Shown here: piece by piece, positions 26,543-40,697 of the stretch | Layout of the letters: each line of letters begins with the position of its first letter | Numbering within the stretch: the first letter of the stretch is position 1 | Assembly (NCBI GenBank): GCA_963922815.1 | Contig: CAWUKD010000004.1 | Span: forward strand, 1 to 57,701 | DNA from: an uncultured Gammaproteobacteria bacterium | Lineage (GTDB): Bacteria; Pseudomonadota; Gammaproteobacteria; Steroidobacterales; SZUA-146 | DNA: 57,701 nt | Reading direction: 5' to 3' | Notes under the pieces: generated by a model | What the model was told of the DNA's origin: nothing | Seen by the model: the letters and a program-made list of their open reading frames with translations, nothing else | The model's database searches: none | Made by a program: the position numbers and the translations under genes

Positions 26543-29500
26543 GCTGCCTGTCTCCCTTGGGATCGAAAAATACCGAGCGGGTAATCGTGACCTTGATGCG
26601 TTCGCCGTCCGGAGTGACCGCATAGACAACCTCTCCATAGCGCTGACGACCCTTTTCAATCAGCGCCAGCGCAATCGGATGATTCAGACAGGCACTGAAG
26701 TAGCTCGAAGTCACGTGACCAACCAGCGGCACAGGTACTGTTGCCCCGGTATCTTCAATAATCTGGGAGCCTTCCGGAACTACGGTCTTGCCGTCTACCG
26801 ACAGCAGCCCGATCAGCTGCTTGCGGTCTTTGCGGATGCAGTCAGGCCGCAGAAGCGACCGTCGACCGACGTAATCCTTCTCTTTGGACAGCAGCCAGCT
26901 CATACCGAGGTCCTGAGGCGTAACGGAGCCATCGGTATCCTGACCGATAATAACGAAACCTTTTTCGGCGCGTAACACGTGAAGCGTTTCCGTACCGTAA
27001 GGCGTGATATCAAACTCCCTGCCTTTATCCATGAGCTGCGTCCACAGACCCAGCGCAAGATTGCTGTCGAGATTAATTTCGTACGCAAGCTCGCCGCTGA
27101 AGCTGATGCGAAAGACCTGCACAGGAAGACCCGCCAGCTGACCGCTTTTAACATCCATGAACGCAAACGCGTCCTTGTCGAAATCTATTGTACTGTCGAA
27201 CTGCTGAAGCAGCTTGCGGGCGTTCGGCCCAACCAGCGCGATCGTGCTGTTGTGATCCGTTGTAGACGTCATATACACGTCCAGATGTGGAAACTCGGTC
27301 TGCAACCAGAACTCCAGCCACGCATATACGGCAGCCGCCCCACCCGTTGTTGTAGTCAGATAGAAGTGTTCCTCACCAATCCTGGCCATCACACCATCAT
27401 CTTTGACCATCCCGTCCTCGCCCAAAAGGATTCCGTAGGCGCAGCGCCCCACGGCCAGCTTGCCAATGTCATGGGTGTACATCATGTCCAGAAACCGTGC
27501 CGCGTCTGGTCCATACACTTCAATCTTGCCGAGCGTTGAGGCATCCATTATCCCGAGAGACTCGCGCGTACGCACGCACTCCCGATTAACCGCCGCATGC
27601 ATATCTTCCCGGTCCTTCGGGAAATACCACGGACGATGCCACTGCCCGACGACCTCAAATTTAGCGCCCGCTTTCTCATGCCATTCATGCAGCGCCGTTT
27701 TACGTACCGGTTCAAACAGTTCGCGGACGTCAGGGCCGGCAATCGTGGAAAATGTGGTAGGCGTGTAGTTCGGTCGAAACGTGGTTGTACCGACCGCCGG
27801 AATATCTTCACCGAGCAATTCGGCCAGCACTGCCATGCCGTTAATGTTGCCAAGTTTGCCCTGGTCGGTACCGAAACCAAGCGCCGTGTAGCGCTTGACG
27901 TGCTCGACGTTGCGGAAGCCTTCCCGCACCGCCAGACGCACGTCAGACACTCCGACGTCATTTTGGTAGTCGAGAAACTGCTTCGGCCCCTTGTCAGGAT
28001 CGTACGGCGACGGCACGTGCCACAGCGCCTGAATCGGACTGACGGTGCCAACTTCGCACTGAGGAGAGGTATAGTCCGGCAGCTTTGCGCCCAATGCATT
28101 GCACACCGCCTCGCCCGCGCGCCACCCATCTTCCAGCACGTCTGATAATTCAAACACACCGTTGCCAGCGCCTGCGGAGACGCATGATTGCGGACTCGCC
28201 TCGGGCACAAACCCGGATACGTCGTGATCCCAGCGGTTCTTGCCCCCCGAATGCGAATGCAAGTGCACGGCTGGCGACCACCCGCCTGACATCGCCACCA
28301 GGTCGCAGTCGATTACATCATTATGATTCGCCAGTGACTTGCCGTCGGAGTTGAGCTGCCCAATCCTGGCGCCGGTAACGCGCGTACGACCAGAGACATC
28401 ATAAACAACCTGCTCAAAGCGAACCGGGATGTTCACCTGTTTGACCCTTGTGACGGCGTCACACTTACCTTCGGGCCGGCTATCGATAATCGCTGCGACT
28501 TCGACGCCGGCCTCATGCAGGTCCAACGCTGTTGCGTACGCCGAATCGTTGTTGGTAAATACAACGGCCCGCTTACCCGGCCTGACTCCGTACTGGTTCA
28601 CATAGGCGGATACGGCAGATGCCTGCATGACACCCGGCCGGTCGTTGTTACAAAACACCAGCGGTCGCTCAAACGCGCCCTGTGCCAGAACGACCTGAGC
28701 CGCACGCACCTTCCAAAGGCGCTGCCTGGGACTGACGGGACTGCTGCTTTCGCCTTGCGTAAGACAGTGTTCAGCAATGGTCAGAAAATTGTGATCGTGG
28801 TACGCAATGACGGTGCTATTGGTCAGACACCGCACGTTGGCAAGAGATTTTAGCTCCTGATAAACTCCGCGCGCCCAGCGATCGGCCGGTTTCCCGTCAA
28901 GCGTTGCACGGGTAGCCAGCAGGTGGCCACCAAACGCCGGCTTTTCATCAGCGATTATGACTCTGAGCCCCGCACGAGCGGCCAGCAGTGCGGCTGTCAG
29001 ACCTGCTGGACCGCCCCCGGCAATCAGCACGTCGCAGTGCGCGTGCCGGTGAGAATAGTGATCCGGATCGGCCTCCAAAGGTGATTCACCCATGGCAGAC
29101 ATCTTTCGAATCGCCGGTTCAAACATGCGCCAGGCATTTCGCGTTGGCCCCATAAAAGTCTTGTAATAAAACCCGGCGGCCAGCACATTCTTGACCATGC
29201 CAAGCGCTTCCTGCACGTCAACGTTAACGCTCGGCCAGCCTTTCACGGTGCGCGCCTCGAGCCCTTCGTAAAGTAACACCTGAGTCGCACGCATATTCGG
29301 TTCGGTGGTGGCACCTGAACCAATTTGCAAAATCGCATTCGGCTCTTCCGCACCGATGCCTACGATACCCCGCGGACGGTGATACTTGAAACTGCGGCCG
29401 ACAATATCCACCCCGTTTGCGAGCAGGGCCGAAGCCAGGGTATCCCCCTGAAAACCGGTCATCGCTTTGCCATTAAACGTAAAGCGCACCGGCTTGGAAC

Positions 29501-29549
29501 GATTAATACGCCCACCGTCCGCCAATCGGTTAACTTGCTCACCCGTCAT
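26535..29549 (-). CDS. soxA: Sarcosine oxidase alpha subunit
   Basis: GDTLASALLANG, RSFKYHRPRG, EHVKRYTALGFGTDQGK, GcvT-like C-terminal domain. Confidence 0.96.
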   Translation of the reverse strand: MTGEQVNRLADGGRINRSKPVRFTFNGKAMTGFQGDTLASALLANGVDIVGRSFKYHRPRGIVGIGAEEPNAILQIGSGATTEPNMRATQVLLYEGLEARTVKGWPSVNVDVQEALGMVKNVLAAGFYYKTFMGPTRNAWRMFEPAIRKMSAMGESPLEADPDHYSHRHAHCDVLIAGGGPAGLTAALLAARAGLRVIIADEKPAFGGHLLATRATLDGKPADRWARGVYQELKSLANVRCLTNSTVIAYHDHNFLTIAEHCLTQGESSSPVSPRQRLWKVRAAQVVLAQGAFERPLVFCNNDRPGVMQASAVSAYVNQYGVRPGKRAVVFTNNDSAYATALDLHEAGVEVAAIIDSRPEGKCDAVTRVKQVNIPVRFEQVVYDVSGRTRVTGARIGQLNSDGKSLANHNDVIDCDLVAMSGGWSPAVHLHSHSGGKNRWDHDVSGFVPEASPQSCVSAGAGNGVFELSDVLEDGWRAGEAVCNALGAKLPDYTSPQCEVGTVSPIQALWHVPSPYDPDKGPKQFLDYQNDVGVSDVRLAVREGFRNVEHVKRYTALGFGTDQGKLGNINGMAVLAELLGEDIPAVGTTTFRPNYTPTTFSTIAGPDVRELFEPVRKTALHEWHEKAGAKFEVVGQWHRPWYFPKDREDMHAAVNRECVRTRESLGIMDASTLGKIEVYGPDAARFLDMMYTHDIGKLAVGRCAYGILLGEDGMVKDDGVMARIGEEHFYLTTTTGGAAAVYAWLEFWLQTEFPHLDVYMTSTTDHNSTIALVGPNARKLLQQFDSTIDFDKDAFAFMDVKSGQLAGLPVQVFRISFSGELAYEINLDSNLALGLWTQLMDKGREFDITPYGTETLHVLRAEKGFVIIGQDTDGSVTPQDLGMSWLLSKEKDYVGRRSLLRPDCIRKDRKQLIGLLSVDGKTVVPEGSQIIEDTGATVPVPLVGHVTSSYFSACLNHPIALALIEKGRQRYGEVVYAVTPDGERIKVTITRSVFFDPKGDRQRV

Positions 29550-29610
29550 TGAAAACCACCCGGCCACCGATGCGCCCATCGCCAACCCGGGATCAACACG
29601 CTATCAACTC

Positions 29611-29898
29611 TCATCTGTCTGCCGCCGCTGCGTCGAGTGATTCGTTCATTTTGCAGGTTGCCTCAAACTGATAGGACACGGTATCTCTGCGCGCTTTGAA
29701 ATACTGCCGGCATCCCGCGGAATGTACCCATAGTTCGTCATGGGCACCCTTTGGATTGCTGCGGCAGAAAAGATAGTCAGCCCACTGCTCGTCGGACAAG
29801 GTGTCCGGATGGGTAGGTCTGACGATCCCGGCTTCTCCGGCATAGCCAAATTCGCTTTGATCGCGCTCACCGCAAAAAGGACAGTTGATAATAAACAT
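29611..29898 (-). CDS. soxD: Sarcosine oxidase delta subunit
   Basis: CPFCGERDQSEF, NPKG, WVHSAGC zinc ligands. Confidence 0.95.
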   Translation of the reverse strand: MFIINCPFCGERDQSEFGYAGEAGIVRPTHPDTLSDEQWADYLFCRSNPKGAHDELWVHSAGCRQYFKARRDTVSYQFEATCKMNESLDAAAADR

Positions 29899-29906
29899 AC
29901 GTTTTC

Positions 29907-31157
29907 CTAGTGGGCTACGCCTGCCGCACCGTGTTCGTCGATCAGTGCACCTGTTGTAAAACGGTCAAGTGAAAACGGCGCATTGATCGCATGAGGACGA
30001 TCATGAGCAACGGTATGAGCAAAGGCCCAGCCTGAACCTGGCGTTGCTTTAAACCCACCCGTACCCCAGCCGCAGTTAAAATAAAGACCTCTCACCGGCG
30101 TCTTGCTGACGATAGGACAGGCATCAGGGCACACATCGACAATACCGCCCCACTGCCGGAGCATGCGCATTCGTCCAAAAATCGGAAACAGCTCTACAAT
30201 CGCCTGCATGGCATGCTCAATAACATCAAAACTGCCGCGCTGGCCGTAGCCGTTGTAGTGATCAATACCGGCCCCGATAACGAGCTCGCCTTTGTCCGAC
30301 TGGCTGATATAACCGTGCACGGCATTCGACATGACGACCGTATCCAGGACAGGCTTAACAGGCTCTGAAACGTAGGCCTGCAAAGGATGACTCTCAATCG
30401 GCAGGCGAAGCCCTGCCATGTCGGCCAACACTCCCGAATGGCCTGCCACCACCACGCCTACTTTGCGGGTAGTGATAGCGCCCCGGGTCGTGTCCACACC
30501 CACCACCTGATCGCCGTCACGCCGGATTCCGGTAACCTCGCACTGCTGAATGATATCGACACCCAGGTCGTGGGCGGCTCGCGCAAACCCCCAGGCAACC
30601 GCATCGTGCCGGGCAACGCCTGCCCGCCGCTGCAGCGACGCTCCCAGTATCGGGTAGCGACAATCCGGTGATGTGTTGATGTGAGGAATTGCGGCTTTGA
30701 TCTGCGCCGGATTCATGACCTCGGCGTCAATGCCGTTAAGCACGTTTGCTGCGACGCGCCGTTTGATATCCCGAAGATCCTGAAGACTGTGCCCAAGATT
30801 CCAAACGCCGCGGGCACTAAACATGACGTTGTAGTTGATATCCTGACTCAGGCCTTCCCAAAGCTGCAGTGACTTCTCGTAAAAATTGGCCGCTTCAGTC
30901 CACAGATAGTTGGAACGAACGATGGTGGTATTGCGCCCCGTGTTACCGCCACCGATCCATCCTTTTTCAAGTACGGCAATATTGCTGAGCCCATGCTCCC
31001 TGGCCAGGTAGTACGCCGTTGCCAGACCGTGCCCGCCGCCACCTACAATAATCGCGTCGTAGTCGGGCTTCGGCGCCACGTCGCGCCAGTTTTCTTCCCA
31101 CGCTGTATTACCACCAAGCGAATTCTTGAGCAGCCGGAATACGTTATGCTTCTTCAT
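29907..31157 (-). CDS. soxB: Sarcosine oxidase beta subunit
   Basis: [56 protein letters not shown]. Confidence 0.96.
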
Positions 31158-31588
31158 TGATGCTCGCTTTCGTTATCCTGATGGTCGCCGTGTTCGTAGC
31201 TCAGTGACTGGGGCAATCCATCATCGAGGTCATAGTAGTCACCCGCCGATTCGACAAAAATGTGACCCGAAGCCGTAAGCCGTGTGGGTGTATTGAGCGT
31301 GCCGGCCATGATGCTGACCGTTCCGCGCCGCGCCGCTTCCCAGAACATACTGGAACCACACTCGCAGCAAAAACCACGCCTGGCATTGTCCGATGATTTG
31401 AACCACGTCAAACCGCGCTCTTCGCTGATAATTAGATCATGTTTGGCACAGGCCGTCGCGGCAACAAAGTGCCCACTGGTCTTTCGGCACTGTTCACAAT
31501 GACAGTAGATGACGTCACGCATCGGTCCGGTGACTGAATAGCGTACCGCTCCGCACAGACAGGAGCCATCTCTGGCAGGATCAGTCAT
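31154..31588 (-). CDS. GFA (glutathione-dependent formaldehyde-activating)/CENP-V family protein
   Basis: [28 protein letters not shown] zinc motifs; overlaps both neighbours. Confidence 0.9.
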
Positions 31589-34037
31589 TGGCGCCATTTA
31601 CATCTCGCAGTCGTTCGTTCGCAGAGTCAAAAGGGCTCTCCCCGATGACAGTGGCATCAAACATCCTGCCAAGAATTTCAATCTGAAGCCGGGTACCGGT
31701 CTGCGTGTGTTCGGGCTTGAGCATACACAGAGCCAGCGATGTATTGACACGAAAACCAAACCCGCCTCCTGTCGCTCGGCCCACCAGTTCTCCATCGATG
31801 GTCAGCGCATTGTTGCCAAGCGCATCTGCGTCGTCCACACCGTGAACCTCAAGCGTCGCAAGCTGATAGCTTCGCCCACGCTGCTCCCAGGCCAGCAAGG
31901 CATCCCGTCCCAGAAAATCGCCCTTCTCCGGGTGAATAAACCGGTCCATACCGGATTCGTATGCCGAGTATTCGATTGAGAGTTCGGTTCCAACCATGCG
32001 ATACGACTTCTCGAGTCGCATACTGTCCATCGCACGTATTCCAAACGGCTTCAGGCCCAGGTCGTGACCTGCCGCAAACAACGCGTCGAACACATGGTTT
32101 TGATACTCGATGGGATGATGTAACTCCCAGCCGAGTTCACCTACATAGTTAACCCGCATCGCCACATTGGGCGCCATACCGACAATGACGTTCTGCGACG
32201 TCAGCCAGCGAAACGCTTCGTTGGAAAAGTCCGTGCGCGACACGCGTTCAAGAAGCTGACGCGATTTCGGCCCCGCGAGCACCAGCACGCCCATCGATCC
32301 GGTCAGGTCCTGGAAATGCACTGACCCGTCCCGAGGCATGTGTTTTTTCAGATAGTCGTGGTCGAGTCGCTGCAGCGCTCCCGCAGACACCAGATAGAAC
32401 GATGTATCAGACTCACGTCGAATGGTGAACTCGGAGTGCACTCCTCCGCGAGTATTCAAAGAATGGCACAATCCGATCCCGCCGACTTTCTTCGGAATCC
32501 GGTTAGCCACCATATAGTCAAGAAATGCTTCCGCGCCGCTCCCGCTGATCCGGCACTTGGCGAAAGCGGTCATATCAAGCACGCCTACATTTTCGTGCGT
32601 GTTCTTAACCTCGCGGCCCATCGCACTGAACCATTTCGAACGCCGGAATGACCAGTCATCGACGGCTTCTTCGCCGTCCTGCGCAAACCAGTTGGCTCGT
32701 TCCCAGCCAAACTTCTGACCAAACACGGCACCCATCGATTTGAGGCGGTCGTAGCACGGTGCAGTACGCAACGGTCGTCCAGCCTCGCGCTCTTCATCCG
32801 GATAGTGAATGACGAAGACATTGGCGTAGGCTTCTTCGTTCTTCTGAACCAGATAGGACTTGGTTGCATAGTCCCCGAAACGGCGCGGATCAACACCCAT
32901 CATATCGATGGTAGGCTCGCCTTCAACAATCCACTCCGCCAACTGCCAGCCGGCGCCGCCGGCTGCTGTAATACCAAAGCTGTGACCTTCATTCAGCCAG
33001 AAATTGGGGACGTCCCAGGCCGGCCCGATAATCGGGTTGCCATCGGGCGTATAGGCAATGGCGCCGTTGTACACGTTCTTGATACCGCATTCCGCAAACG
33101 CCGGAACGCGCTCCATGCAGGCTTCGATATGCGGCTCGAGACGCTCAAGATCACCCTCGAACAGTTCGTATTCCGCATCGACGGAAGGACCATCCACATA
33201 GCACGCCGGAGCTCCTTTTTCGTACGGCCCAAGAATAAAGCCTTTGTTCTCTTCCCGCAGATACCACGAATCATCTGACTGCCTGAGCACCGGCAGCTCC
33301 GGGTCCCCTCGCTCGTGTCTTGCAACGACATCGGGATGCGCTTCGGTCACGATGTACTGATGCTCGACCGGCACTACCGGTACATCAAGCCCGACCATTT
33401 CCCCGGTCTGCCTGGCGTAATTTCCTGTGCAGGAAACAACATGTTCGCAGGTGATCGTGCCTTTGTTGGTAACGACTTCCCAGCGATCGTCATCCGTTCG
33501 ATTGATATCCGTGACCAGCGTCTGGCGATAAATGGTCGCGCCATTGGCCCGAGCCCCTTTCGCCAGAGCTTGCGTGAGATCCGCTGGCTGAATATAGCCG
33601 TCATCGGGGTGGTAGATAGCGCCCACCAGGCCGTCAGTAGTACACAGCGGCCAGAGCTCGCCGACCTGCTCGGGCGTTAAAAACTCAACGTTGATTCCGA
33701 TAGTCTTCGCCGTGGCCGCGTACTGCATGTACTCGTCCATGCGATCCTGATTCATCGCCAGGCGCAGGTTACCGCACGTCTTCATGCCGACGGCCTGCCC
33801 GGTTTCCGCTTCCAGTGACCGATACAGATTGACCGAGTACTTGTGCACCTGCCCAACGCTGTAGCTCATGTTAAATAGCGGCAGGAGTCCGGCAGCATGC
33901 CAGGTCGAGCCCGAAGTGAGTTCCGCTTTTTCGAGGAGCACGCTGTCCTCTCCCCAGCCTTTTTTGGCCAGATGATACAGCGTACTTACCCCTACTACCC
34001 CGCCACCTATGACGACAACGCGTGCCTCTGATTTCAT
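31581..34037 (-). CDS. Dimethylglycine dehydrogenase-like GcvT-family flavoprotein
   Basis: VIGGGVVG, SGSTWHAAGL, YTPDGNPIIGP, GcvT domains, SMRLEKSYR; likely ATG at 34037. Confidence 0.88.
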   Translation of the reverse strand: MKSEARVVVIGGGVVGVSTLYHLAKKGWGEDSVLLEKAELTSGSTWHAAGLLPLFNMSYSVGQVHKYSVNLYRSLEAETGQAVGMKTCGNLRLAMNQDRMDEYMQYAATAKTIGINVEFLTPEQVGELWPLCTTDGLVGAIYHPDDGYIQPADLTQALAKGARANGATIYRQTLVTDINRTDDDRWEVVTNKGTITCEHVVSCTGNYARQTGEMVGLDVPVVPVEHQYIVTEAHPDVVARHERGDPELPVLRQSDDSWYLREENKGFILGPYEKGAPACYVDGPSVDAEYELFEGDLERLEPHIEACMERVPAFAECGIKNVYNGAIAYTPDGNPIIGPAWDVPNFWLNEGHSFGITAAGGAGWQLAEWIVEGEPTIDMMGVDPRRFGDYATKSYLVQKNEEAYANVFVIHYPDEEREAGRPLRTAPCYDRLKSMGAVFGQKFGWERANWFAQDGEEAVDDWSFRRSKWFSAMGREVKNTHENVGVLDMTAFAKCRISGSGAEAFLDYMVANRIPKKVGGIGLCHSLNTRGGVHSEFTIRRESDTSFYLVSAGALQRLDHDYLKKHMPRDGSVHFQDLTGSMGVLVLAGPKSRQLLERVSRTDFSNEAFRWLTSQNVIVGMAPNVAMRVNYVGELGWELHHPIEYQNHVFDALFAAGHDLGLKPFGIRAMDSMRLEKSYRMVGTELSIEYSAYESGMDRFIHPEKGDFLGRDALLAWEQRGRSYQLATLEVHGVDDADALGNNALTIDGELVGRATGGGFGFRVNTSLALCMLKPEHTQTGTRLQIEILGRMFDATVIGESPFDSANERLRDVNGAND

Positions 34038-34149
34038 ACCTGCGATCCTGTTCTGCCGCGCTTTCGGTGCGGTAGTGATTAAGCCCGAGCTGTCCAGTAC
34101 GGACAAACGGGGCCGGGCTGTCCGGGGCACAATTGCCGAGCCGTTCCAA

Positions 34150-34213
34150 AGTGTAATTGAGCCTTGGCAAACACTGTAGTCTAAATCCGACAAGCCGTGC
34201 CGGCAAGACGCCT
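34150..34213 (-). promoter_or_regulatory. Activator-dependent promoter for the DMG dehydrogenase-gfa-sox operon
   Basis: Minus strand AGGCGT-N15-TGTCGG, with TACACT 37 bp after the TGTCGG start; same geometry as at 42386-42449. Confidence 0.55.
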
Positions 34214-34271: not shown

Positions 34272-34829
34272 TCAAACGCAGTTCTGTGGTTCGCGGGCAA
34301 ACAATGCTCGCAGACGGTCTTCAAAATGAGCCAGTGGCCGGGTCGGGTAGTCCGGATCAAAAGACACCTGATCCCATTGGGCACAAAACGCCGCGCAGGC
34401 CTCATAATACGGATGATCCTTAAGCGCTTCCCGGGCGTTTCTGTCCATGTCGAAATGGTGAAACCAGTAGTAGCCCTGGAACAATCCATGGTGCAGCACA
34501 ATCCAGTAGCTCTTCTCGCTGACATAGGGGCGTAACAGGGCCGCCGCCGCCTGCGAATGGTTGTGGGGGCCGATCACGTCGCCGATATCGTGCAACAAGG
34601 CGCAGATCACCATTTCGTCACTGGCCCCGTCAGCTTCGGCTCGCGTTGCGGTTTGCAACGAATGCTCCAGCCGGCTGATCTGGTATGGCGAATCGCCGTC
34701 CATAGAGCGCATCCATTCAAGCACCCGGTCCGCCAGCTGGCTGGCGTTGTGAGCGTCGTGCCGGGAAACGAGCTCATAGTCCTCGCGCGTGCCGTGCTCC
34801 ATGGCCGTAAAATTAACTACTTTCGTCAT
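34272..34829 (-). CDS. HD-domain diiron oxygenase, TmpB/PhnZ-like
   Basis: Six-ligand set H(LEHS)-HD(LLHDIG)-H(HNH)-H(LHHG)-D(WDQ); ends SFDPDYPT. Confidence 0.8.
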   Translation of the reverse strand: MTKVVNFTAMEHGTREDYELVSRHDAHNASQLADRVLEWMRSMDGDSPYQISRLEHSLQTATRAEADGASDEMVICALLHDIGDVIGPHNHSQAAAALLRPYVSEKSYWIVLHHGLFQGYYWFHHFDMDRNAREALKDHPYYEACAAFCAQWDQVSFDPDYPTRPLAHFEDRLRALFAREPQNCV

Positions 34830-35926
34830 TCCGCCTTCTCCAGTTGACGCTTTAATACAGTCAGATGATTGCGCACACCGTCGTGCTCGAAATACGCATC
34901 CTGCAAATGGCGTCTTCCCGAAGGATCAAACCCGTTGCGAGCATGCAAGACCCGGTGTCCGGCGACCAGCAAACACTGTTCGCTTTCCAACCTGAAGACT
35001 ACTCGCGCCTGTTCGCTCATTAACCGCCTGCTGAGTTCGTGATAGGCCAAATAGAACGCCTCCAGCTTTGGTGTATTCGGGCTCAGGGTTTGCATCAGCT
35101 GATTCGAGTAGCGCAAATGAACTACGCCGCCGTCAGCGCCCACCCGAATAACCGGATTGACTGCAAAGGTTTCTTCCTGTTCATCAAACATCCTGAATGG
35201 CACCGACACCTGACATAGCACGTCGAACATATCCGGATGGTCGATTCTGAGCTGCTCGGCAATGGCCCATCCGTCTACAATAACTGTTTCGCCTCCTTCA
35301 CACTCGTTTACCAGCATATGTAGCCCCTGAACCGACGGAGGCCAGGACGAACTGGCAAAGTCATTGTGCGGCGGCAGAGGCAGCGACGTATGTGCCACGT
35401 TATAGCCGCCCGGATCCACCCGTACTTCATGTAACCGACCAAAGGGCATGTCGCGTATGCACCCAAGTCGCGGCTGCAAGCGCTCCAGCATGCCGCTCCT
35501 GCCCGGCATGTTAGTAATAACCAGCGCACCCAACGTAAGGAACTGCTCTATGGCGGAAGCCGCAACAACAGCTGTGTGCAGGAACTCGCCGAATTCGACC
35601 GTTGGCGGCGAAAACCCCTTGGTCCAGTGTTTGGTCTGAACTCCATCAAACCGTTCCAGCGTTCGAATATAGTCACCGTCAAAGCGGCTTTCGTGTCCGT
35701 CCGGCCACCGGATGACCAGCTCATCGTTTGAGAGCGCGGCACTGGCAGGACGCAGTTGCGCCGGAACGGAGGACAACATAAACCGCTTCTCATCCGTTTG
35801 CACAACGCGACACTCGGCGCACCGGCAATTGTCACGCAACCACAAGTGTGGCAGCTCACACTGTGTACTGTTGGCCCAGGTAACGCGGGTCACCGTGGTG
35901 CCTATGTCGACTGTTCCGGGCATCAT
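34826..35926 (-). CDS. Fe(II)/2-oxoglutarate dioxygenase, BBOX/TmpA-like (TauD family)
   Basis: GBBH-like N-domain WLRDNCRCAEC; HND...H(VLHAR) facial triad; RHLQDAY; ATGA overlap with the HD gene. Confidence 0.85.
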   Translation of the reverse strand: MMPGTVDIGTTVTRVTWANSTQCELPHLWLRDNCRCAECRVVQTDEKRFMLSSVPAQLRPASAALSNDELVIRWPDGHESRFDGDYIRTLERFDGVQTKHWTKGFSPPTVEFGEFLHTAVVAASAIEQFLTLGALVITNMPGRSGMLERLQPRLGCIRDMPFGRLHEVRVDPGGYNVAHTSLPLPPHNDFASSSWPPSVQGLHMLVNECEGGETVIVDGWAIAEQLRIDHPDMFDVLCQVSVPFRMFDEQEETFAVNPVIRVGADGGVVHLRYSNQLMQTLSPNTPKLEAFYLAYHELSRRLMSEQARVVFRLESEQCLLVAGHRVLHARNGFDPSGRRHLQDAYFEHDGVRNHLTVLKRQLEKAE

Positions 35927-36011: not shown

Positions 36012-38057
36012 CTACTTATCCTGAATCTTGCTATCGGACAGCGCAACCCGCTTTCTGCGGCGCCTGCGCGAACTCTCCTCGCTCACAGGAGGGGCCGCGC
36101 GTTTCGGCGGTCGCTCAACCGTGGAAAACAGCTTCGTGTAGGGGTCCGTCTTGTGCGGCACAGCCATCGCACTGACAAAGTACTCCTGAAACGCAGGTTC
36201 GATCGCAGTTTCGATCTTTTCTATACGCTTTACAACCTGTTCGATCGTGCGTCTGGAACCCCGGTTAAGTAACGCCTTCAGCGCGCCTAATCCTGCCGCG
36301 TTTCCGGCTGACGAAACATGGTTCAATTCGCAGTCAGGGATCAATCCAAGCACCATCGCGTGCTTCACATCAATGTGACTGCCAAACGCACCGGCCAGTC
36401 GCACGCGCTTCACATCGCGACTGCCATAGTGGTCCATTAGCAGACTGACTCCGGCATGAAGTGCGGCTTTGGCCAGCTGAATTTGGCGCACATCGTTCTG
36501 CGTAATCGTAAGCTTGATGTCACCTTCATGAAGAACATAGGACCAGGTTCTTTCGTCCGGCTCAATACGCGAGGACTGCTCTGCCAGTGTTCCGTTAATA
36601 ACTCCGTCTTCTGTAATCACACCGGCGAGAAACATCTCAGCGACCACTTCGATAATACCGGAACCACAAATCCCGGTTACTCCGATGCCCGCGATTGACT
36701 CTGCGAAACCCGGATCATCTGACCATAGCTTGCTGCCAATAACTCGAAACCGCGGCTCAAGTGTTTCAACATCGATTCGCACTCGTTCAACAGCACCTGG
36801 TGCCGCTCGTTGTCCGCAGCTGATTTGCGCGCCTTCGAAAGCAGGTCCGGTAGGGCTCGAGCAGGCCAGAAGGCGTGTCTTGTTGCCGAGGACAATTTCC
36901 GCGTTTGTACCAAGATCGATTAACAAGGTGAGTTCATCGCGGTTTTGAGGAGACTCACTCAAGACCACGGCGGCAGAGTCTGCGCCTACATGACCCGCAA
37001 TGCACGGCAGTACATAGACTCGTGCGCCCGAATGCACCGACAGGTCCAGCTCGCTGGCTTTCAGACTCAAGGCACCGTCTGTAGCAAGCGCAAACGGCGC
37101 GCCACCAAGCTCAACGGGATCGATACCCAGCACCAGATGATGCATGACCGGGTTACCCACCAGCGTCAGCTCCAGAATATCGTCAACCCCAATGGTGTCG
37201 TGCGGCTTCACGAGCGCATCGCACAGCTCGTTAAGGCCTTCACGAATAGCACCTGTCATTTGCGCTGCACCCTCCGGATGCATCATGACGTAAGACACGC
37301 GACTCATCAGGTCCTCTCCGAACCGGATCTGCGGATTCATTACGCCTTCGGAACCGATGATCTGCCCGGAAGTCAGATCCACAAGGTGTGCGGCGACCGT
37401 GGTCGAACCAATATCGACAGCCACGCCATAAACGGACTGCCTGAACCCAGGCCACACGGCCACGATCTGTGACGCGTCATACACCGCAACCGACACCTTC
37501 CATTCGCCTTCACGCAGCGCGCGCTGCAAACCGGGCAGCACAGATACGTCGCACTCCAGTGCGGACAGTCCCCACTCTTTTTCGAGCGCCTTGCACAGGC
37601 GCTGCAGATCACCGGAGGGATCATGCATGTCGGCTTCTTCAACACGGACGTAGTGCATACGCACAGCCGTATCCAGCTCAACTTCAAGATCACCGGCGGC
37701 CTTGCGTACGACCTGCCGATGCACCTGACTGCTGGCAGGCACATCAATTACCACGTCGCCTTCTATGCGCGCCTGACAGCCCAGCCGACGATCGCTCGCC
37801 AACTCCCGTTTTCCACGAGGACCATAGTGTTTCTCGCTATCCGCCACAGCCGACAAATGATCGACGCTTGACCGGATACCGTGCTTCGGAAACTCACCGT
37901 CAGTACACTGAACCTGACAGCGACCGCAAAGCGCACGTCCACCGCACACCGAATCAATATCGACACCCAGCGAACGCGCGGCATCGAGCACCGGAGTGCC
38001 GAGCGCGAAATCACCTCGCTTGCCACTGGGAGTGAATACGACGCGAGCAGTGCGCAT
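36012..38057 (-). CDS. ASKHA-domain ATP-dependent corrinoid reductive activator (RamA/RACo-like)
   Basis: N-terminal 2Fe-2S (CGGRALCGRC...RLGCQ); DIGSTT, DLGTNAE, SPTGPAFEG, AGAFGSH. Confidence 0.92.
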   Translation of the reverse strand: MRTARVVFTPSGKRGDFALGTPVLDAARSLGVDIDSVCGGRALCGRCQVQCTDGEFPKHGIRSSVDHLSAVADSEKHYGPRGKRELASDRRLGCQARIEGDVVIDVPASSQVHRQVVRKAAGDLEVELDTAVRMHYVRVEEADMHDPSGDLQRLCKALEKEWGLSALECDVSVLPGLQRALREGEWKVSVAVYDASQIVAVWPGFRQSVYGVAVDIGSTTVAAHLVDLTSGQIIGSEGVMNPQIRFGEDLMSRVSYVMMHPEGAAQMTGAIREGLNELCDALVKPHDTIGVDDILELTLVGNPVMHHLVLGIDPVELGGAPFALATDGALSLKASELDLSVHSGARVYVLPCIAGHVGADSAAVVLSESPQNRDELTLLIDLGTNAEIVLGNKTRLLACSSPTGPAFEGAQISCGQRAAPGAVERVRIDVETLEPRFRVIGSKLWSDDPGFAESIAGIGVTGICGSGIIEVVAEMFLAGVITEDGVINGTLAEQSSRIEPDERTWSYVLHEGDIKLTITQNDVRQIQLAKAALHAGVSLLMDHYGSRDVKRVRLAGAFGSHIDVKHAMVLGLIPDCELNHVSSAGNAAGLGALKALLNRGSRRTIEQVVKRIEKIETAIEPAFQEYFVSAMAVPHKTDPYTKLFSTVERPPKRAAPPVSEESSRRRRRKRVALSDSKIQDK

Positions 38058-38074: not shown

Positions 38075-38968
38075 TTAGCTGGCGCGACGGCGACGGCGGT
38101 TTCTTCGTCCCGCCCCGTCAGCCGATGGCTGCCGGTATTTGCGAATCCAGTTGGCGCAATCCGGGTCGTTGCCCATCATCACGTCGGCGCCCAATACCGC
38201 CTGGATCACCTCTTCGTGCAAGGGACTGGTGATGGCCGAGGTCATCCCGGCCGAAATTGCCATGGTTAGAAAGGCACTATTGATACCGTTTCGGTTGGGC
38301 AGGCCAAAACTGACGTTCGACGCACCACAGGTTGTATTCACCTTGAGCTCTTCACGCAGTCGCCGCACAAGATGCATGACCTGCTTGCCGGAGCTGTTGA
38401 TCGCTCCAATGGGCATAACCAGCGGATCCACCACCACGTCGCTGCGAGAAATGCCGTGGTCGGCTGCTCGCTCAACGATCTTCTTCGCGACTTCGAATCT
38501 GACGTTGGGATCTTCTGAAATGCCGGTCTCGTCGTTGGAAATCGCCACTACCGCAGCTCCGCTCCTGGCCACCAGCGGGAGCACGGACTCCAGCACTTCG
38601 TCTTCGCCGGTAACCGAATTAACCAGCGCTTTGCCCTGATAAACGGACAAACCGCTTTCCAGCGCCGCAATGATGGATGAATCTATCGACAGTGGCACAT
38701 CGGTTATCGATTGGACCAGTTTGACGCACTCGGCCAATATGGCGGGCTCGTCCGCCAACGGGATGCCGGCGTTAACGTCCAGCATGTGGGCGCCAGCCGC
38801 CACCTGGGCAAGCGCATCGGCCTCTACCCGGCTGTAGTCACCGTTTTTCATTTCCTCCGCCAGAATTTTTCTTCCGGTCGGGTTAATGCGCTCGCCGATA
38901 ATGACGAACGGCTGATCAAAGCCAATTTTGACTTCGCGAGTTGCCGAGCTAATGGTAGTTATGGTCAT
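38075..38968 (-). CDS. Pterin-binding methyltetrahydrofolate:corrinoid methyltransferase
   Basis: IIGERINPTGRK, LDVNAG, LSIDSS, VNSV, VDPLVMP, GASNVSFGLP. Confidence 0.92.
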   Translation of the reverse strand: MTITTISSATREVKIGFDQPFVIIGERINPTGRKILAEEMKNGDYSRVEADALAQVAAGAHMLDVNAGIPLADEPAILAECVKLVQSITDVPLSIDSSIIAALESGLSVYQGKALVNSVTGEDEVLESVLPLVARSGAAVVAISNDETGISEDPNVRFEVAKKIVERAADHGISRSDVVVDPLVMPIGAINSSGKQVMHLVRRLREELKVNTTCGASNVSFGLPNRNGINSAFLTMAISAGMTSAITSPLHEEVIQAVLGADVMMGNDPDCANWIRKYRQPSADGAGRRNRRRRRAS

Positions 38969-39038: not shown

Positions 39039-39383
39039 TCACGTTTCATCCTCGACCGACGCGTCTTCAGGTTTGTCAGGCGAGTTACCCTTGTTTTTCA
39101 CCAGCGCCGTCAGCATCTGATCCGTGTAGGCCGCTTCTATCTCATCAGCGGCTCGCTGAGCAACAGTCTGATAATCTTCTTCGCCACGGTACACCTCACT
39201 CTCACGACGCCATTCCGCAATATAGGCGTCGCTGCCGCCCTTCCCTGCTCTCATTGCGGCCCTATCTATGGCGGCCTGAAAACGCGGACTGAGCATGACC
39301 TTACCGCTGGTGCGGCGTAATTTGACGATCACCTGAGACGGAATATCGCGCCAGTAAACGATGATTTTTTTGGGTGAAGGCAA
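39039..39383 (-). CDS. 'Virulence factor'-family small protein of corrinoid methyltransferase clusters
   Basis: VYWRDIPSQVIVK...RFQAAIDRAAM...AYIAEWRR; TTG start with GGGAG RBS. Confidence 0.75.
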   Translation of the reverse strand: MPSPKKIIVYWRDIPSQVIVKLRRTSGKVMLSPRFQAAIDRAAMRAGKGGSDAYIAEWRRESEVYRGEEDYQTVAQRAADEIEAAYTDQMLTALVKNKGNSPDKPEDASVEDET

Positions 39384-39385
39384 GG

Positions 39386-39988
39386 TCAGACTCCCACTAC
39401 GGCCTGCAGCTCGGGAAGCAGTTCACCGAACCCTGTCTCCACGCTGCAGTAGTCGAGCCTAAGATAATCTGCAATGTCGCGAGCTTTTTGTTCGAGCAAC
39501 GGACTGCGGGATTGCATCAGATACATAACCTTTTGGTAATTGCCAAAAAACTGCGGCAACAGCTCGGGATGAACATCAAGCTTCAATGAACGCACAACCA
39601 GCCGGTCAAAATGTCGCACAAGAAAATCGGTCAAATAGAACGTGGCCGGATCGGCATCATGGTATTGATCAAATTGTGACTGACCGGCGAACGTTGCGTA
39701 GCAATGGAGACCCGGAAGTCGCTCAAGGCCAAATTCAGTCAGCACCTTGTCGAGTTCGCCGTACGTACCGCAGTCGGCAAATGCAACGAATACTTTTTCA
39801 TAAGATCCGTTGGCATGAATCAATTTATCGCGCACCGCAGGCGCAATCCTGGTTGGCGTGAAATGCAGGTTCGCATCAATAGCCTCAATCTCGATATGCC
39901 GCCATTGATTCAGCGTTCTGATCTGATGAATCTCACGCGCTATCGCACCGCACGCGATGATCAGAATGGTTTTACCCGGCCGCGGCAC
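39386..39988 (-). CDS. DUF1638 domain protein
   Basis: IACGAIARE, ANLHFTP, FADCGT, HCYATF, FYLTDFL; probable GTG start at 39988 overlapping the corrinoid gene. Confidence 0.8.
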   Translation of the reverse strand: MPRPGKTILIIACGAIAREIHQIRTLNQWRHIEIEAIDANLHFTPTRIAPAVRDKLIHANGSYEKVFVAFADCGTYGELDKVLTEFGLERLPGLHCYATFAGQSQFDQYHDADPATFYLTDFLVRHFDRLVVRSLKLDVHPELLPQFFGNYQKVMYLMQSRSPLLEQKARDIADYLRLDYCSVETGFGELLPELQAVVGV

Positions 39989-40697
39989 GACGCTCTTCCA
40001 CCATTCGGGTCGCCATGTTGGCGGCCTCAGCCGCGTCCCGACAGTAACCGTCAGCCCCAACGGCGGTACCGAACTCTTCGTTCAGGGGCGCACCGCCTAC
40101 CAGAACAATGTAATCATCTCTTACGCCGCGAGCGACCATCTCATCGATAACGACTTTCATATAAGGCATGGTCGTGGTCAGCAGTGCCGACATACCGAGA
40201 ATGTCCGGCTGGTGCTCTTCAATGGCCGCGAAGTAATCCTCAACCGCGTTGTTAATGCCAATATCGATCACTTCAAAGCCGGCGCCCTCGAGCATCATGG
40301 CGACGAGATTCTTGCCAATATCGTGGATATCACCTTTCACCGTGCCAATGACCATCTTGCCAACGGGTTTGGCACCGGTTTCGGCCAGCAGAGGACGCAG
40401 AATCCCCATGCCGCCTTTCATGGCGTTGGCCGCGAGTAACACTTCGGGAACAAACAGGATGCCATCGCGAAAATCGATGCCGACGATTTTCATGCCGGCA
40501 ACCAGGGCTTCGTTCAAAACGCGCTCCGCGCTCCAACCGCGCTCCAGCAGGATTGACGTGCCCTGAACAATCTCCTCTTTGAGACCGTCGTACAGATCAT
40601 CGTGCATCTGTTCGACAAGTTCTTCGGTCGACAACGTCGTCAGATCCAGCTCTTCGTCGTCATCCTGGTCTTGTGATTGATCAGCGTGTTCGTTCAT
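39972..40697 (-). CDS. Corrinoid (B12-binding) methyl-carrier protein
   Basis: B12 cap plus GTVKGDIHDIGKNLV (DxHxxG), MSALLTTT, VGGAP. Confidence 0.95.
   Translation of the reverse strand: MNEHADQSQDQDDDEELDLTTLSTEELVEQMHDDLYDGLKEEIVQGTSILLERGWSAERVLNEALVAGMKIVGIDFRDGILFVPEVLLAANAMKGGMGILRPLLAETGAKPVGKMVIGTVKGDIHDIGKNLVAMMLEGAGFEVIDIGINNAVEDYFAAIEEHQPDILGMSALLTTTMPYMKVVIDEMVARGVRDDYIVLVGGAPLNEEFGTAVGADGYCRDAAEAANMATRMVEERRAAAG

What the first reader, a model, noticed from the sequence alone, without database searches (positions are those of the whole stretch)
34272..35926. TmpB-like HD oxygenase paired with a dioxygenase that looks more like BBOX than TmpA
Seen: the HD protein has the full diiron ligand set and is translationally coupled (ATGA) to the dioxygenase. 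The dioxygenase keeps a BBOX-type Zn motif (DNCRCAEC...H) but has unusual active-site strings (HNDFASSSWPP; AGHRVLHAR where DNxRxLHGR is typical). Inference: the substrate may be a different quaternary-amine phosphonate or betaine analogue, making this a new TmpAB-like pair.
Basis: partly seen in the sequence, partly recalled or inferred. Interest (0 to 1): 0.72.

Follow-up and report, generated by a model that had tools for sequence, protein, structure and literature searches.

The report
Uncharacterised hydroxylase plus HD-oxygenase betaine pair
Two overlapping genes inside a vitamin-B12-dependent glycine-betaine breakdown operon encode an iron hydroxylase and a two-iron "HD" oxygenase. They are built like the phosphonate-splitting pair TmpA/TmpB but belong to a separate, widespread, untested marine family that probably feeds a betaine-like compound, not a phosphonate, into the operon.

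Summary
On the minus strand, a 366-aa GBBH/TauD-type Fe/2OG dioxygenase (34826-35926) overlaps by ATGA a 185-aa HD protein (34272-34829) that has all six diiron ligands.

Neither protein is TmpA, TmpB, PhnZ or BBOX:
- All NCBIfam equivalog scores fall far below their cut-offs.
- In trees, each protein sits in its own clade with full support, apart from canonical TmpA/TmpB.
- The fold is still TmpA/BBOX-like (TM 0.89/0.87) for the dioxygenase and PhnZ/TmpB-like (TM about 0.65-0.70) for the HD protein.

The HD clade has lost every residue that is invariant in the PhnZ/TmpB clade around the substrate. That makes a phosphonate substrate unlikely.

The pair sits inside a conserved aerobic MtgBCD-RamA-DMGDH-SoxBDAG-GbdR glycine betaine operon. 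That pathway was described in 2025 without these two genes.

In 80 species-level loci, a GBBH-like gene lies directly upstream of the HD gene in 36. Carriers include SAR86, SAR11, SAR324 and Acidimicrobiia. Some operons keep the HD gene alone.

Best reading: hydroxylation followed by O2-dependent cleavage converts a trimethylammonium precursor into glycine betaine. My best guess is beta-alanine betaine; butyrobetaine/carnitine and TMAEP are rivals. The substrate is not shown.

The parts
34826..35926 (-). GBBH-like/TauD-family Fe(II)/2-oxoglutarate dioxygenase (366 aa). It has an N-terminal Zn site (C34, C36, C39, H78), the HxD...H triad (H187, D189, H328) and the 2OG Arg R339. Family-specific residues are H166, H179, R272, S274, Q276, H324 and D343.
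   Evidence: Pfam TauD 1.6e-33 plus GBBH-like_N 5.5e-13. NCBIfam scores are below every equivalog cut-off. AF2 pLDDT is 91.9 and Foldseek finds TmpA at TM 0.89 and BBOX at 0.87. It forms its own clade with SH-aLRT 100. Residue table.
34272..34829 (-). HD-domain protein (185 aa) of a PhnZ/TmpB-like fold with the full H...HD...H...H...D diiron ligand set (H56, H80, D81, H91, H114, D153). It lacks the YxxE loop and the PhnZ/TmpB substrate residues. Its own invariant residues are R53, D84, W109, F117, Q118, R133, F148, F157 and D158.
   Evidence: Pfam HD 28.9 bits. NCBIfam PhnZ 42 against cut-off 215 and TmpB 31 against 300. AF2 pLDDT is 92.6. Only PhnZ and TmpB match with E < 1e-4 in the PDB (TM 0.56-0.70); MIOX is next at E 0.06. 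It falls in a separate clade. Residue statistics.
34826..34829 (-). ATGA stop/start overlap that couples the dioxygenase and HD genes.
   Evidence: Sequence read.
40788..42383 (-). MtgB (non-pyrrolysine MttB-family glycine betaine:corrinoid methyltransferase).
   Evidence: Pfam MTTB 1.9e-231. Scores 447 bits to D. hafniense MtgB (2qne/9yce), with the equivalents of Y97, R312 and H348 conserved and F356 not. Pathway defined in PMC12478193.
39972..40697 (-). MtgC corrinoid protein.
   Evidence: B12-binding domains. NCBIfam MtgC models score 191 and 164 bits, below cut-off.
39386..40060 (-). DUF1638 protein, predicted in PMC12478193 to take part in reductive corrinoid reactivation.
   Evidence: Pfam DUF1638 3e-21.
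39039..39383 (-). PF13769 'virulence factor' family protein, a conserved member of the cluster.
   Evidence: conserved in L001, L004, L041 and L061-65.
38075..38968 (-). MtgD (methyl-THF:corrinoid methyltransferase, pterin-binding).
   Evidence: Pfam Pterin_bind; NCBIfam PRK07535 at 358 bits, above cut-off.
36012..38057 (-). RACo/RamA-type corrinoid reductive activase.
   Evidence: Pfam RACo_C_ter 1.7e-90, Raco_middle, RACo_linker and Fer2.
31581..34193 (-). Dimethylglycine dehydrogenase-like flavoprotein (DAO + GCV_T).
   Evidence: It is 72-78% identical in the orthologous clusters.
31154..31597 (-). GFA-family protein.
   Evidence: Pfam GFA 2.4e-22.
25931..31157 (-). Heterotetrameric sarcosine oxidase genes: soxB 29907-31157, soxA 26535-29585, soxG 25931-26659. 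soxD should lie in the gap between soxB and soxA.
   Evidence: NCBIfam soxB 706 bits and soxA 1375 bits, both above cut-off; Pfam SoxG.
24757..25770 (-). GbdR-like AraC/DJ-1 regulator.
   Evidence: NCBIfam GbdR 434 bits against cut-off 480.

Best explanation
The two genes form a two-step oxidative trimming module that makes glycine betaine (GBT) for the surrounding operon.

Step 1 (inferred from family and fold): the Fe(II)/2OG dioxygenase hydroxylates the carbon beta to the trimethylammonium group of a short betaine-type compound. BBOX and TmpA do the same.

Step 2 (inferred): the HD protein is a PhnZ/TmpB-type mixed-valent diiron oxygenase. It binds the new hydroxyl on one iron, activates O2 on the other, and cleaves the bond between the carbinol carbon and its acid substituent. 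The carbinol carbon becomes the carboxylate of GBT.

The HD clade has lost all the phosphonate-contacting residues of PhnZ/TmpB and gained two arginines and several aromatic residues. I therefore think the bond cleaved is C-C, not C-P. The most likely substrate is beta-alanine betaine (3-trimethylammoniopropionate), the carboxylate isostere of TMAEP. It would give 2-hydroxy-3-trimethylammoniopropionate and then GBT plus CO2.

GBT is then demethylated by MtgB/MtgC/MtgD with RamA and DUF1638, and by DMGDH and SoxBDAG, under GbdR control.

Shown here: gene anatomy, ligand sets, folds, separate phylogenetic position, conserved operon context, and conservation of the pair. Inferred: oxygenase activity, the order of steps, the product, and the substrate.

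The confidence given (0.55) is for the general statement, a non-phosphonate hydroxylase plus HD-oxygenase feeder of GBT. For beta-alanine betaine specifically it is about 0.25.
For: 1. Fold and ligands. The HD model matches only PhnZ and TmpB strongly in the PDB, and six diiron ligands are kept in 37 of 37 clade members. The dioxygenase matches TmpA and BBOX, with the HxD...H triad and 2OG Arg invariant.

2. Module conservation. The genes overlap by ATGA. A GBBH-like gene is directly upstream in 36 of 80 species loci across Gammaproteobacteria, SAR11, SAR324 and Acidimicrobiia. Other 2OG hydroxylase families (Asp_Arg_Hydrox, PhyH, TauD) sit next to relatives.

3. GBT context. The order MtgB-MtgC-DUF1638-PF13769-(MetVF)-MtgD-RACo-DIOX-HD-DMGDH-GFA-SoxBDAG-GbdR recurs in L001, L002, L004, L041, L061-63, L065 and L105. 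A divergent pair (32% and 49% identity) is embedded in another Mtg cluster, L053. No terminator-like site lies in the two 78-85-bp gaps that flank the pair. The Mtg pathway itself is experimentally defined (PMC12478193).

4. Not a phosphonate. The PhnZ/TmpB-clade invariants Y25, E28, H63, K108, R109, S126, Q133, R158 and K165 are all replaced or deleted. New invariants are R53, R133, W109, F117, F148 and F157. The dioxygenase keeps TmpA's first Arg (R272) but has Q276 where TmpA has its second Arg. Canonical tmpAB loci have no Mtg/DMGDH/Sox neighbours.

5. Precedent for C-C cleavage. The HD enzyme SmaX cleaves an alpha-hydroxycarboxylate after a 2OG hydroxylase (PMC12186529).

6. The candidate substrate exists in the sea. 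Beta-alanine betaine (TMAP) is found in marine particulate metabolomes (PMC9321204 and PMC8269262).

7. No gene for handling a C2 by-product is conserved in the cluster. That fits CO2 or Pi as the leaving group.
Against: - No biochemical data exist for any member of the family, and the substrate assignment rests on residue logic.
- The roles I give to PhnZ K108, S126, T129, Q133 and R158 as phosphonate contacts come from memory of the 2013-14 structure papers. Those papers are not held in the library.
- The HD gene occurs in the same operon position without a dioxygenase (L064, L110, L116, L120, L123, L148). Genome G014, 97% complete, has no GBBH-like gene at all. Either the hydroxylated substrate can come from elsewhere or the HD protein has an independent role.
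- Two histidines (H166, H179) and an aspartate (D343) replace aromatic-cage positions of BBOX. That is odd for a trimethylammonium pocket.
- In SAR11 and some Gammaproteobacteria the pair lies beside carnitine dehydrogenase and BKACE, which points towards butyrobetaine/carnitine.
- SmaX, the C-C cleaving precedent, is mono-iron, not diiron.
Confidence: 0.55

Rival explanations
1. Butyrobetaine/carnitine route. The dioxygenase is a gamma-butyrobetaine hydroxylase that makes carnitine. The HD oxygenase cleaves carnitine (trimethylammonio-CH2-CH(OH)-CH2-COO-) at C2-C3 with O2, giving glycine betaine plus a C2 acid. Operons with the HD gene alone would use imported carnitine directly.
For: - Carnitine is the common natural compound of the form Me3N+-CH2-CH(OH)-X.
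- It explains HD-only operons.
- The pair or the HD gene lies next to CDH and BKACE in 8 Pelagibacteraceae loci and near them in L005, L104, L107, L156 and L165.
- An HD paralogue abuts a BKACE paralogue in G191.
- Public annotation calls the dioxygenase BBOX (PMC12421898).
- Carnitine and TMAB are present in seawater particles.
Against: - The same genomes already carry a complete GBBH + CDH + BKACE route (own genome C1). In streamlined SAR11 it lies side by side with the pair, which argues for a different job.
- Cleaving a C-C bond to an unactivated methylene has no precedent among HD oxygenases.
- No gene for a C2 product is conserved in the cluster.
- The dioxygenase carries Arg at the TmpA phosphonate-Arg position (BBOX 290), where the BBOX-type enzymes have N or T. 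That suggests the acid group sits one atom closer than in butyrobetaine.
Confidence: 0.2
2. Divergent TmpAB. The pair still degrades 2-(trimethylammonio)ethylphosphonate, or a less methylated aminoethylphosphonate, to glycine betaine (or dimethylglycine) plus phosphate, using a re-invented substrate pocket.
For: - TmpA and TmpB are the closest solved structures.
- The product GBT fits the operon.
- The dioxygenase keeps the TmpA-type Arg R272.
- The own genome has no canonical TmpA or TmpB.
Against: - All nine PhnZ/TmpB-clade invariant pocket residues are lost in 37 of 37 members, including three or four cationic residues.
- The second TmpA Arg is Gln.
- There is no phosphonate transporter or Pho-type context. 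Neighbours are betaine, carnitine and choline genes.
- Long stems separate the clades.
Confidence: 0.1
3. The HD protein is a core part of the aerobic Mtg/DMGDH pathway in its own right. It would act on a compound that is already hydroxylated, or serve an accessory role. The dioxygenase would be a facultative add-on that only widens the substrate range.
For: - HD without a dioxygenase sits in the same operon slot in L064, L110, L116, L120, L123 and L148.
- G014 lacks any GBBH-like gene.
- HD proteins are far more conserved (65-88% identity) than the dioxygenases (50-64%).
- HD relatives lie next to MttB paralogues and DMGDH paralogues without a hydroxylase (L044, L045, L048, L054).
Against: - No step of GBT-to-glycine catabolism needs such chemistry, and R. 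pomeroyi runs the pathway with the described genes (PMC12478193).
- 2OG hydroxylases of four families recur next to the HD gene, as expected for a hydroxylase-dependent enzyme.
- A hydroxylase may be encoded elsewhere in the metagenomic contigs.
Confidence: 0.12
4. The HD protein is a phosphohydrolase, as public annotation says, for example acting on phosphocholine. The dioxygenase would be unrelated to it in function.
For: JGI names the family 'predicted HD phosphohydrolase'. Most HD proteins are hydrolases (PMC8177086).
Against: - The only strong structural matches are the oxygenases PhnZ and TmpB.
- It has the six-ligand H...HD...H...H...D set typical of the diiron oxygenases.
- The genes are translationally coupled, and adjacency to 2OG hydroxylases recurs.
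Confidence: 0.04

Closest known systems
TmpA/TmpB of Leisingera caerulea (PDB 6NPB-D, 6NPA): TMAEP to (R)-1-hydroxy-TMAEP to glycine betaine + phosphate
   Same: - The same two-gene architecture: a GBBH-like Fe/2OG hydroxylase followed by a small HD diiron protein.
- The same folds (TM 0.89 and about 0.64).
- The same metal ligands.
- The product predicted here (glycine betaine) is the TmpB product.
- The dioxygenase shares the Arg at BBOX position 290.
   Different: - Sequence identity is 26-28% for the dioxygenase and 20-23% for the HD protein.
- NCBIfam scores are 238 against 400 and 31 against 300.
- Both proteins fall in separate clades.
- The dioxygenase keeps the Zn site that TmpA lacks.
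- The HD protein lacks the YxxE loop, H63, K108, R109, S126, Q133, R158 and K165, and two insertions.
- Canonical tmpAB is not found in GBT demethylation operons.
PhnY*/PhnZ (2-aminoethylphosphonate to glycine + phosphate; PDB 4MLM/4MLN/4N6W)
   Same: PhnZ is the best structural match of the HD protein (TM 0.68-0.70). The logic of hydroxylase plus HD mixed-valent diiron oxygenase is the same.
   Different: The partner hydroxylase comes from a different TauD subfamily. The substrate pocket residues are not conserved. There is no phosphonate context.
Gamma-butyrobetaine hydroxylase (human BBOX1, PDB 3O2G; bacterial GBBH next to CDH/BKACE)
   Same: - GBBH-like N-terminal domain with a Cys3His Zn site.
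- TauD-fold catalytic domain.
- N191 and Y366 equivalents are kept.
   Different: - About 22% identity, and TIGR02409 scores 247 against a cut-off of 415.
- Cage residues W181 and Y194 become His, and carboxylate ligand N292 becomes Ser.
- The own genome has a separate GBBH gene in a carnitine cluster on contig C1.
SmaO/SmaX (Asp to beta-hydroxy-Asp to aminomalonate; PMC12186529)
   Same: A 2OG hydroxylase followed by an HD-domain oxygenase that cleaves the C-C bond of an alpha-hydroxycarboxylate. This is the chemistry proposed here.
   Different: SmaX is mono-iron, with only 2 His plus Asn, and acts on a peptide. The window's protein has the full diiron set and sits in small-molecule catabolism.
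Aerobic MtgBCD glycine betaine demethylation pathway (Ruegeria pomeroyi; PMC12478193)
   Same: The surrounding genes (MtgB, MtgC, MtgD, RamA, DUF1638, with DMGDH and Sox downstream) match this pathway.
   Different: The main text of the paper does not mention a dioxygenase or HD gene. In marine Gammaproteobacteria these two genes are inserted between RamA and DMGDH.

Membership tests
TmpA (NF049936, 2-trimethylaminoethylphosphonate dioxygenase) | Score above the curated equivalog cut-off (400 bits) | tested here: not met
   237.6 bits. The best hit anywhere in the own genome is 284.5 bits.
TmpA (NF049936, 2-trimethylaminoethylphosphonate dioxygenase) | Falls in the clade of characterised TmpA | tested here: not met
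   Canonical TmpA forms one clade (SH-aLRT 100) and the window family another (100, stem 2.14).
TmpA (NF049936, 2-trimethylaminoethylphosphonate dioxygenase) | R-x-N-N-R motif (two Arg) at BBOX positions 290-294 | tested here: not met
   The window has R272-Y-S274-N275-Q276. The first Arg is kept and the second is Gln. The role of these residues in phosphonate binding is inferred, not read from the paper.
TmpB (NF049941) / PhnZ (TIGR03276) C-P cleaving HD oxygenases | Score above the curated cut-offs (300 / 214.6 bits) | tested here: not met
   30.9 and 42.4 bits, covering only the first HD motif.
TmpB (NF049941) / PhnZ (TIGR03276) C-P cleaving HD oxygenases | YxxE substrate-gating loop | tested here: not met
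   Y is 26/26 and E 25/26 in the TmpB/PhnZ clade. The window clade has no aligned Tyr, and Y/F49 stands in place of the Glu. Loop described in PMC8177086.
TmpB (NF049941) / PhnZ (TIGR03276) C-P cleaving HD oxygenases | Clade-invariant pocket residues H63, K108, R109, S126, Q133, R158, K165 | tested here: not met
   All are replaced or deleted in 34-37 of 37 window-clade sequences.
[quoted passage not shown] | H...HD...H...H...D six-ligand set | tested here: met
   H56, H80, D81, H91, H114 and D153 are invariant. Motif defined in PMC8177086.
[quoted passage not shown] | Fold nearest to known oxygenase members rather than to hydrolases | tested here: met
   The top 10 PDB hits are all PhnZ or TmpB (E 7e-7 to 6.5e-5). 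Hydrolases score E > 0.05.
[quoted passage not shown] | Fe(II)/Fe(III) cofactor and O2-dependent four-electron bond cleavage | not testable with these tools
   Needs EPR or Moessbauer spectroscopy and activity assays.
Gamma-butyrobetaine dioxygenase (TIGR02409) | Score above the cut-off (414.75 bits) | tested here: not met
   247.1 bits.
Gamma-butyrobetaine dioxygenase (TIGR02409) | Aromatic cage Y177/W181/Y194/Y366 and carboxylate ligands N191/N292 (residue roles recalled from the BBOX1 structure papers) | tested here: not met
   The window residues are F162, H166, H179, Y345, N176 and S274.
Gamma-butyrobetaine dioxygenase (TIGR02409) | N-terminal Cys3His Zn site | tested here: met
   C34, C36, C39 and H78 are invariant.
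Fe(II)/2OG TauD-family dioxygenases | HxD...H facial triad and 2OG-binding Arg | tested here: met
   H187, D189, H328 and R339 are invariant. Pfam TauD 1.6e-33.

The most novel reading that the evidence does not exclude
This HD clade would be a new functional class of diiron HD oxygenases that cleave a C-C bond rather than a C-P bond in hydroxylated trimethylammonium acids. With interchangeable 2OG hydroxylases it would form a general alpha-oxidation-like route. That route would shorten betaines such as beta-alanine betaine, and possibly butyrobetaine, to glycine betaine in SAR11, SAR86, SAR324, Acidimicrobiia and many Gammaproteobacteria. Public annotation files the family with PhnZ (COG4341, 'HD phosphohydrolase'). 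Part of the very high marine 'phnZ' abundance reported in surveys, for example 45% Pelagibacterales in PMC9381506, may therefore be this betaine enzyme. If so, oxidative phosphonate use in the ocean would be overestimated.
Probability: 0.4. Interest if true: 0.85.

Novelty: new variant of a known kind. Interest (0 to 1): 0.68.

Why it matters
- Glycine betaine and related osmolytes are major carbon, nitrogen and methyl currencies in the surface ocean. The aerobic B12-dependent GBT pathway was only defined in 2025. These two conserved genes inside the operon are unexplained and point to a missing feeder pathway for another abundant betaine.
- The family is large. There are more than 6,000 clusters at 90% identity with E <= 1e-3, and at least 597 species genomes carry it. 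It occurs in the most abundant marine clades.
- If the bond cleaved is C-C, the known chemistry of diiron HD oxygenases widens.
- If annotation-based surveys have counted the family as phnZ, estimates of marine phosphonate mineralisation need revision.

Tried and rejected
- Canonical TmpAB membership was rejected by HMM cut-offs and trees.
- BBOX proper was rejected: the score is below cut-off, the cage and carboxylate residues are altered, and a separate GBBH + BKACE + CDH cluster lies on own contig C1.
- A 'choline oxygenase' replacing BetA was considered. It is weakened because the own genome and G191 have a bona fide BetA above cut-off. G014, G335 and G396 have only sub-cut-off GMC oxidoreductases, so this test is not decisive.
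- The Rajakovich 2019 (PMC6503667) and Woersdoerfer 2013 (PMC3839769) papers are not held. The residue roles for TmpA and PhnZ are therefore from memory plus clade conservation.
- Transcript evidence was sought, but only three DNA or unknown-type runs hold the stretch and none is RNA.
- The promoter and terminator scan of 33900-36300 found no promoter-like site, and neither terminator-like site lies in the two gaps that flank the pair.
- The rest of the window holds no betaine or phosphonate transporter near the cluster.
Full report
**Observation**

The finding is on the minus strand. ORF 34826-35926 encodes a 366-aa protein and ORF 34272-34829 a 185-aa protein. The first ends ...GCG GAA TGA and the second begins ATG ACG AAA in the same bases, so the overlap is ATGA, with an AGAAGG string just upstream.

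In 38 homologues of the dioxygenase, C34, C36, C39, H78, H187, D189, H324, H328 and R339 are invariant. In 38 homologues of the HD protein, H56, H80, D81, H91, H114 and D153 are invariant.

**What the two proteins are**

The larger protein has Pfam TauD (1.6e-33) and GBBH-like_N (5.5e-13). NCBIfam equivalog models all fail their cut-offs:

| Model | Score (bits) | Cut-off (bits) |
|---|---|---|
| BBOX | 247 | 415 |
| TmpA | 238 | 400 |
| TMLD | 151 | 268 |

By phmmer against the PDB, the best sequence matches are TmpA 6NPB (1.2e-40) and human BBOX (3e-36). An AF2 model (pLDDT 91.9) superposes on TmpA at TM 0.89 and on BBOX at 0.87.

The small protein has only a weak Pfam HD hit (28.9 bits). 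The PhnZ and TmpB models score 42 and 31 bits against cut-offs of 215 and 300, and cover only the first HD motif. Its AF2 model (pLDDT 92.6) matches PhnZ and TmpB and nothing else strongly. The top ten hits have TM 0.56-0.70 and E values from 7e-7 to 6.5e-5. MIOX and the hydrolases come only at E >= 0.05.

So the folds are those of a TmpA/BBOX-type hydroxylase and a PhnZ/TmpB-type diiron oxygenase, but neither sequence belongs to a named family.

**Phylogeny**

I collected canonical tmpA-tmpB pairs from 15 genomes that pass the TmpB cut-off. I also collected 16 weaker TmpB-model hits, which are PhnZ-like.

*HD tree (63 rows).* The tree splits into two deep clades, each with SH-aLRT 100 and a stem of about 1.1 changes per site. 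One holds TmpB plus the PhnZ-like proteins (26 rows). The other is the window's clade (37 rows).

*Dioxygenase tree (37 rows).* The window family is one clade (100, stem 2.14). Its sister (87) is a divergent dioxygenase from another Mtg cluster, L053. It is separate from canonical TmpA (100), human BBOX and the own genome's carnitine-cluster GBBH.

**Context**

The pair lies in one same-strand block, in this order:
- MttB-family MtgB
- MtgC
- DUF1638
- PF13769
- pterin methyltransferase MtgD
- RACo/RamA
- dioxygenase
- HD
- DMGDH-like
- GFA
- SoxB(D)AG
- GbdR-like regulator

FolD and formate-THF ligase lie nearby.

This is the aerobic, cobalamin-dependent glycine betaine demethylation pathway shown genetically in Ruegeria pomeroyi in 2025 (PMC12478193). 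The main text of that paper does not mention a dioxygenase or an HD gene. The window's MtgB keeps three of the four GBT-binding residues of D. hafniense MtgB (Y97, R312, H348, but not F356).

The same gene order, with the pair between RamA and DMGDH, recurs in many marine gammaproteobacterial contigs: L001, L002, L004, L041, L061-63, L065 and L105. A pair only 32% and 49% identical is embedded between MtgC and DUF1638 in another lineage, L053. Neither terminator-like site found by the scan lies in the 78-85-bp gaps on either side of the pair. Canonical tmpAB loci show none of these neighbours.

**How general the module is**

A scan of one genome per species found at least 597 genomes with a relative of the HD protein. 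The best 80 (52-72% identity) come from these groups:
- SAR86
- Porticoccaceae
- strain HTCC2143
- Woeseia
- Arenicellales
- Alteromonas
- Marinomonas communis
- Pelagibacteraceae
- SAR324
- Acidimicrobiia
- Dehalococcoidia/SAR202

Neighbours of the HD gene in those 80 loci:
- In 36, a GBBH-like dioxygenase of one of three subfamilies lies immediately upstream on the same strand.
- In 4, an Asp/Arg-hydroxylase-type 2OG oxygenase takes that place.
- In 4, a PhyH-type oxygenase is adjacent.

A TauD gene also flanks a relative.

In eight Pelagibacteraceae loci the pair sits beside carnitine dehydrogenase and BKACE. An Arctic SAR11 island paper annotates the hydroxylase there as BBOX (PMC12421898).

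The HD gene also occupies its usual slot in Mtg operons with no dioxygenase present: L064, L110, L116, L120, L123 and L148. Genome G014, 97% complete, has the HD-DMGDH arrangement but no GBBH-like gene at E <= 1e-25.

**Active sites**

*HD protein.* Within the 26-member TmpB/PhnZ clade, Y25, E28 (the YxxE loop), H63, K108, R109, S126, Q133, R158 and K165 are invariant or nearly so. In all or nearly all 37 members of the window clade they change as follows:

| TmpB/PhnZ clade | Window clade |
|---|---|
| Glu of YxxE (E28) | Y/F49 |
| H63 | D84 |
| K108 | Q118 |
| R158 | A/E |
| K165 | F157 |
| S126-Q133 segment | deleted |

The window clade has its own invariants: R53, one helical turn before ligand H56, and R133, W109, F117, F148 and D158.

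From memory of the PhnZ structure papers, which I could not open, K108, S126, T129, Q133 and R158 hold the phosphonate. Losing three or four cationic side chains while gaining two arginines and several aromatics fits a mono-anionic carboxylate next to a trimethylammonium group better than a phosphonate.

*Dioxygenase*:
- The Zn site that TmpA lacks is kept.
- The TmpA-type Arg at BBOX position 290 is kept (R272).
- The second TmpA Arg is Gln (Q276).
- BBOX's carboxylate ligand N292 is Ser (S274).
- Cage residue W181 is His (H166).

The divergent L053 enzyme shares H166, R272, S274 and Q276, so these residues track the shared context.

**Mechanism proposed**

By analogy with PhnY*/PhnZ, TmpA/TmpB and SmaO/SmaX, the reaction would run in three steps:
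1. The dioxygenase hydroxylates the carbon beta to the ammonium group.
2. The HD diiron enzyme binds the alkoxide and uses O2 to cleave the bond to the attached acid group.
3. The carbinol carbon becomes the carboxylate of glycine betaine, which enters MtgBCD, DMGDH and Sox.

The substrate I favour is beta-alanine betaine, the carboxylate isostere of TMAEP, which would give GBT plus CO2. Three things support this choice:
- The compound occurs in marine particulate metabolomes.
- SmaX sets a precedent for HD-catalysed cleavage of an alpha-hydroxycarboxylate.
- No gene for a C2 by-product is conserved in the cluster.

I give roughly 0.55 to the general statement, a non-phosphonate hydroxylase/HD-oxygenase feeder of GBT. 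I give about 0.25 to beta-alanine betaine specifically.

**Rivals**

*Butyrobetaine to carnitine to GBT.*
- For: the links to CDH and BKACE, and the HD-only operons.
- Against: the same genomes already have GBBH + CDH + BKACE, and the chemistry has no precedent.

*A re-invented TMAEP pathway.*
- For: the fold and the product fit.
- Against: the pocket residues and the genomic context do not.

*An independent role of the HD protein in the operon.*
- For: the HD-only operons.
- Against: no step of the pathway needs such chemistry.

*A plain phosphohydrolase.* This is unlikely given the fold, the ligand set and the hydroxylase partners.

**Novelty and importance**

The kind is known: a 2OG hydroxylase plus an HD oxygenase cascade. 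This family is uncharacterised in the literature I could search. It is phylogenetically separate from the known pairs, very widespread, and probably acts on a different bond and substrate. I class it as a new variant of a known kind.

Public sources name the HD protein 'predicted HD phosphohydrolase', and the PhnZ model still hits it at E 5e-11. A survey that selected phnZ by KEGG, TIGRfam or COG annotation found 45% of marine phnZ in Pelagibacterales and called phnZ the dominant phosphonate route (PMC9381506). Other authors who separated subtypes found it rare (PMC10574752). This family may explain part of that gap. I did not test this directly.

**Earlier notes of this scan**

I read these only after the analysis above. 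They describe the same family in other genomes and reach similar conclusions. They are not independent evidence. I re-derived the loss of phosphonate residues and the betaine context here.

Noticed in passing
window 41189-41288 (-): Rfam PYLIS_3 (the pyrrolysine insertion sequence of mttB) matches inside the uninterrupted, non-pyrrolysine mttB/mtgB ORF at 41.8 bits, above the gathering score of 38. This is probably conserved coding sequence rather than a working PYLIS element.
   Followed up: no
window 38968-39039, and L001, L004, L041, L064, L065: Orthologous clusters carry DUF5981 + MTHFR (MetV/MetF2-like) between PF13769 and the pterin methyltransferase. The window lacks both, so methyl-THF oxidation must rely on an unlinked gene.
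   Followed up: partly
window 42587-45262 (-): An 891-aa choice-of-anchor B protein with LVIVD repeats and TSP3/dockerin-like modules lies between folD and mtgB. It interrupts an otherwise C1/betaine gene block.
   Followed up: no
own genome C1:53290-56840: A second GBBH-like gene (372 aa, no Zn cysteines) lies directly next to BKACE and carnitine dehydrogenase, forming a conventional butyrobetaine/carnitine-to-betaine cluster. A third paralogue lies at C23:5205-6365.
   Followed up: partly
own genome C21:30164-30754: A second HD protein of the same clade (46% identity) stands alone next to a [2Fe-2S] subunit and a 760-aa molybdopterin-oxidoreductase-like ORF. The identity of those two neighbours was judged from size and sequence motifs only.
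   Followed up: no
G396:C2:32173-33192: The dioxygenase orthologue (45% identity) in this 1.3-Mb genome has an in-frame TAA. The HD gene lies on another contig. This may be a decaying copy.
   Followed up: no
G191:C35:12443-13904: An HD paralogue (43% identity) lies next to a BKACE paralogue (179 bits). This is another link between the HD clade and beta-keto-acid/carnitine-type genes.
   Followed up: no
L005, L103, L104, L107, L117: HD proteins 68-72% identical to the window's follow an Asp/Arg-hydroxylase-type 2OG oxygenase. In most of these loci the cluster also holds a Sulfotransfer_2 gene, a Rieske protein and a fatty-acid-desaturase-like protein. The HD protein is nested within the Mtg-type subclade (shown for L005).
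   Followed up: partly
L043, L103-107, L146, L151, L154, L165, L171, L172: A class II aldolase/adducin-family gene recurs within a few kb of the HD gene in unrelated taxa. An Arctic SAR11 quaternary-amine island is also reported to hold one (PMC12421898). Its role is unexplained.
   Followed up: no
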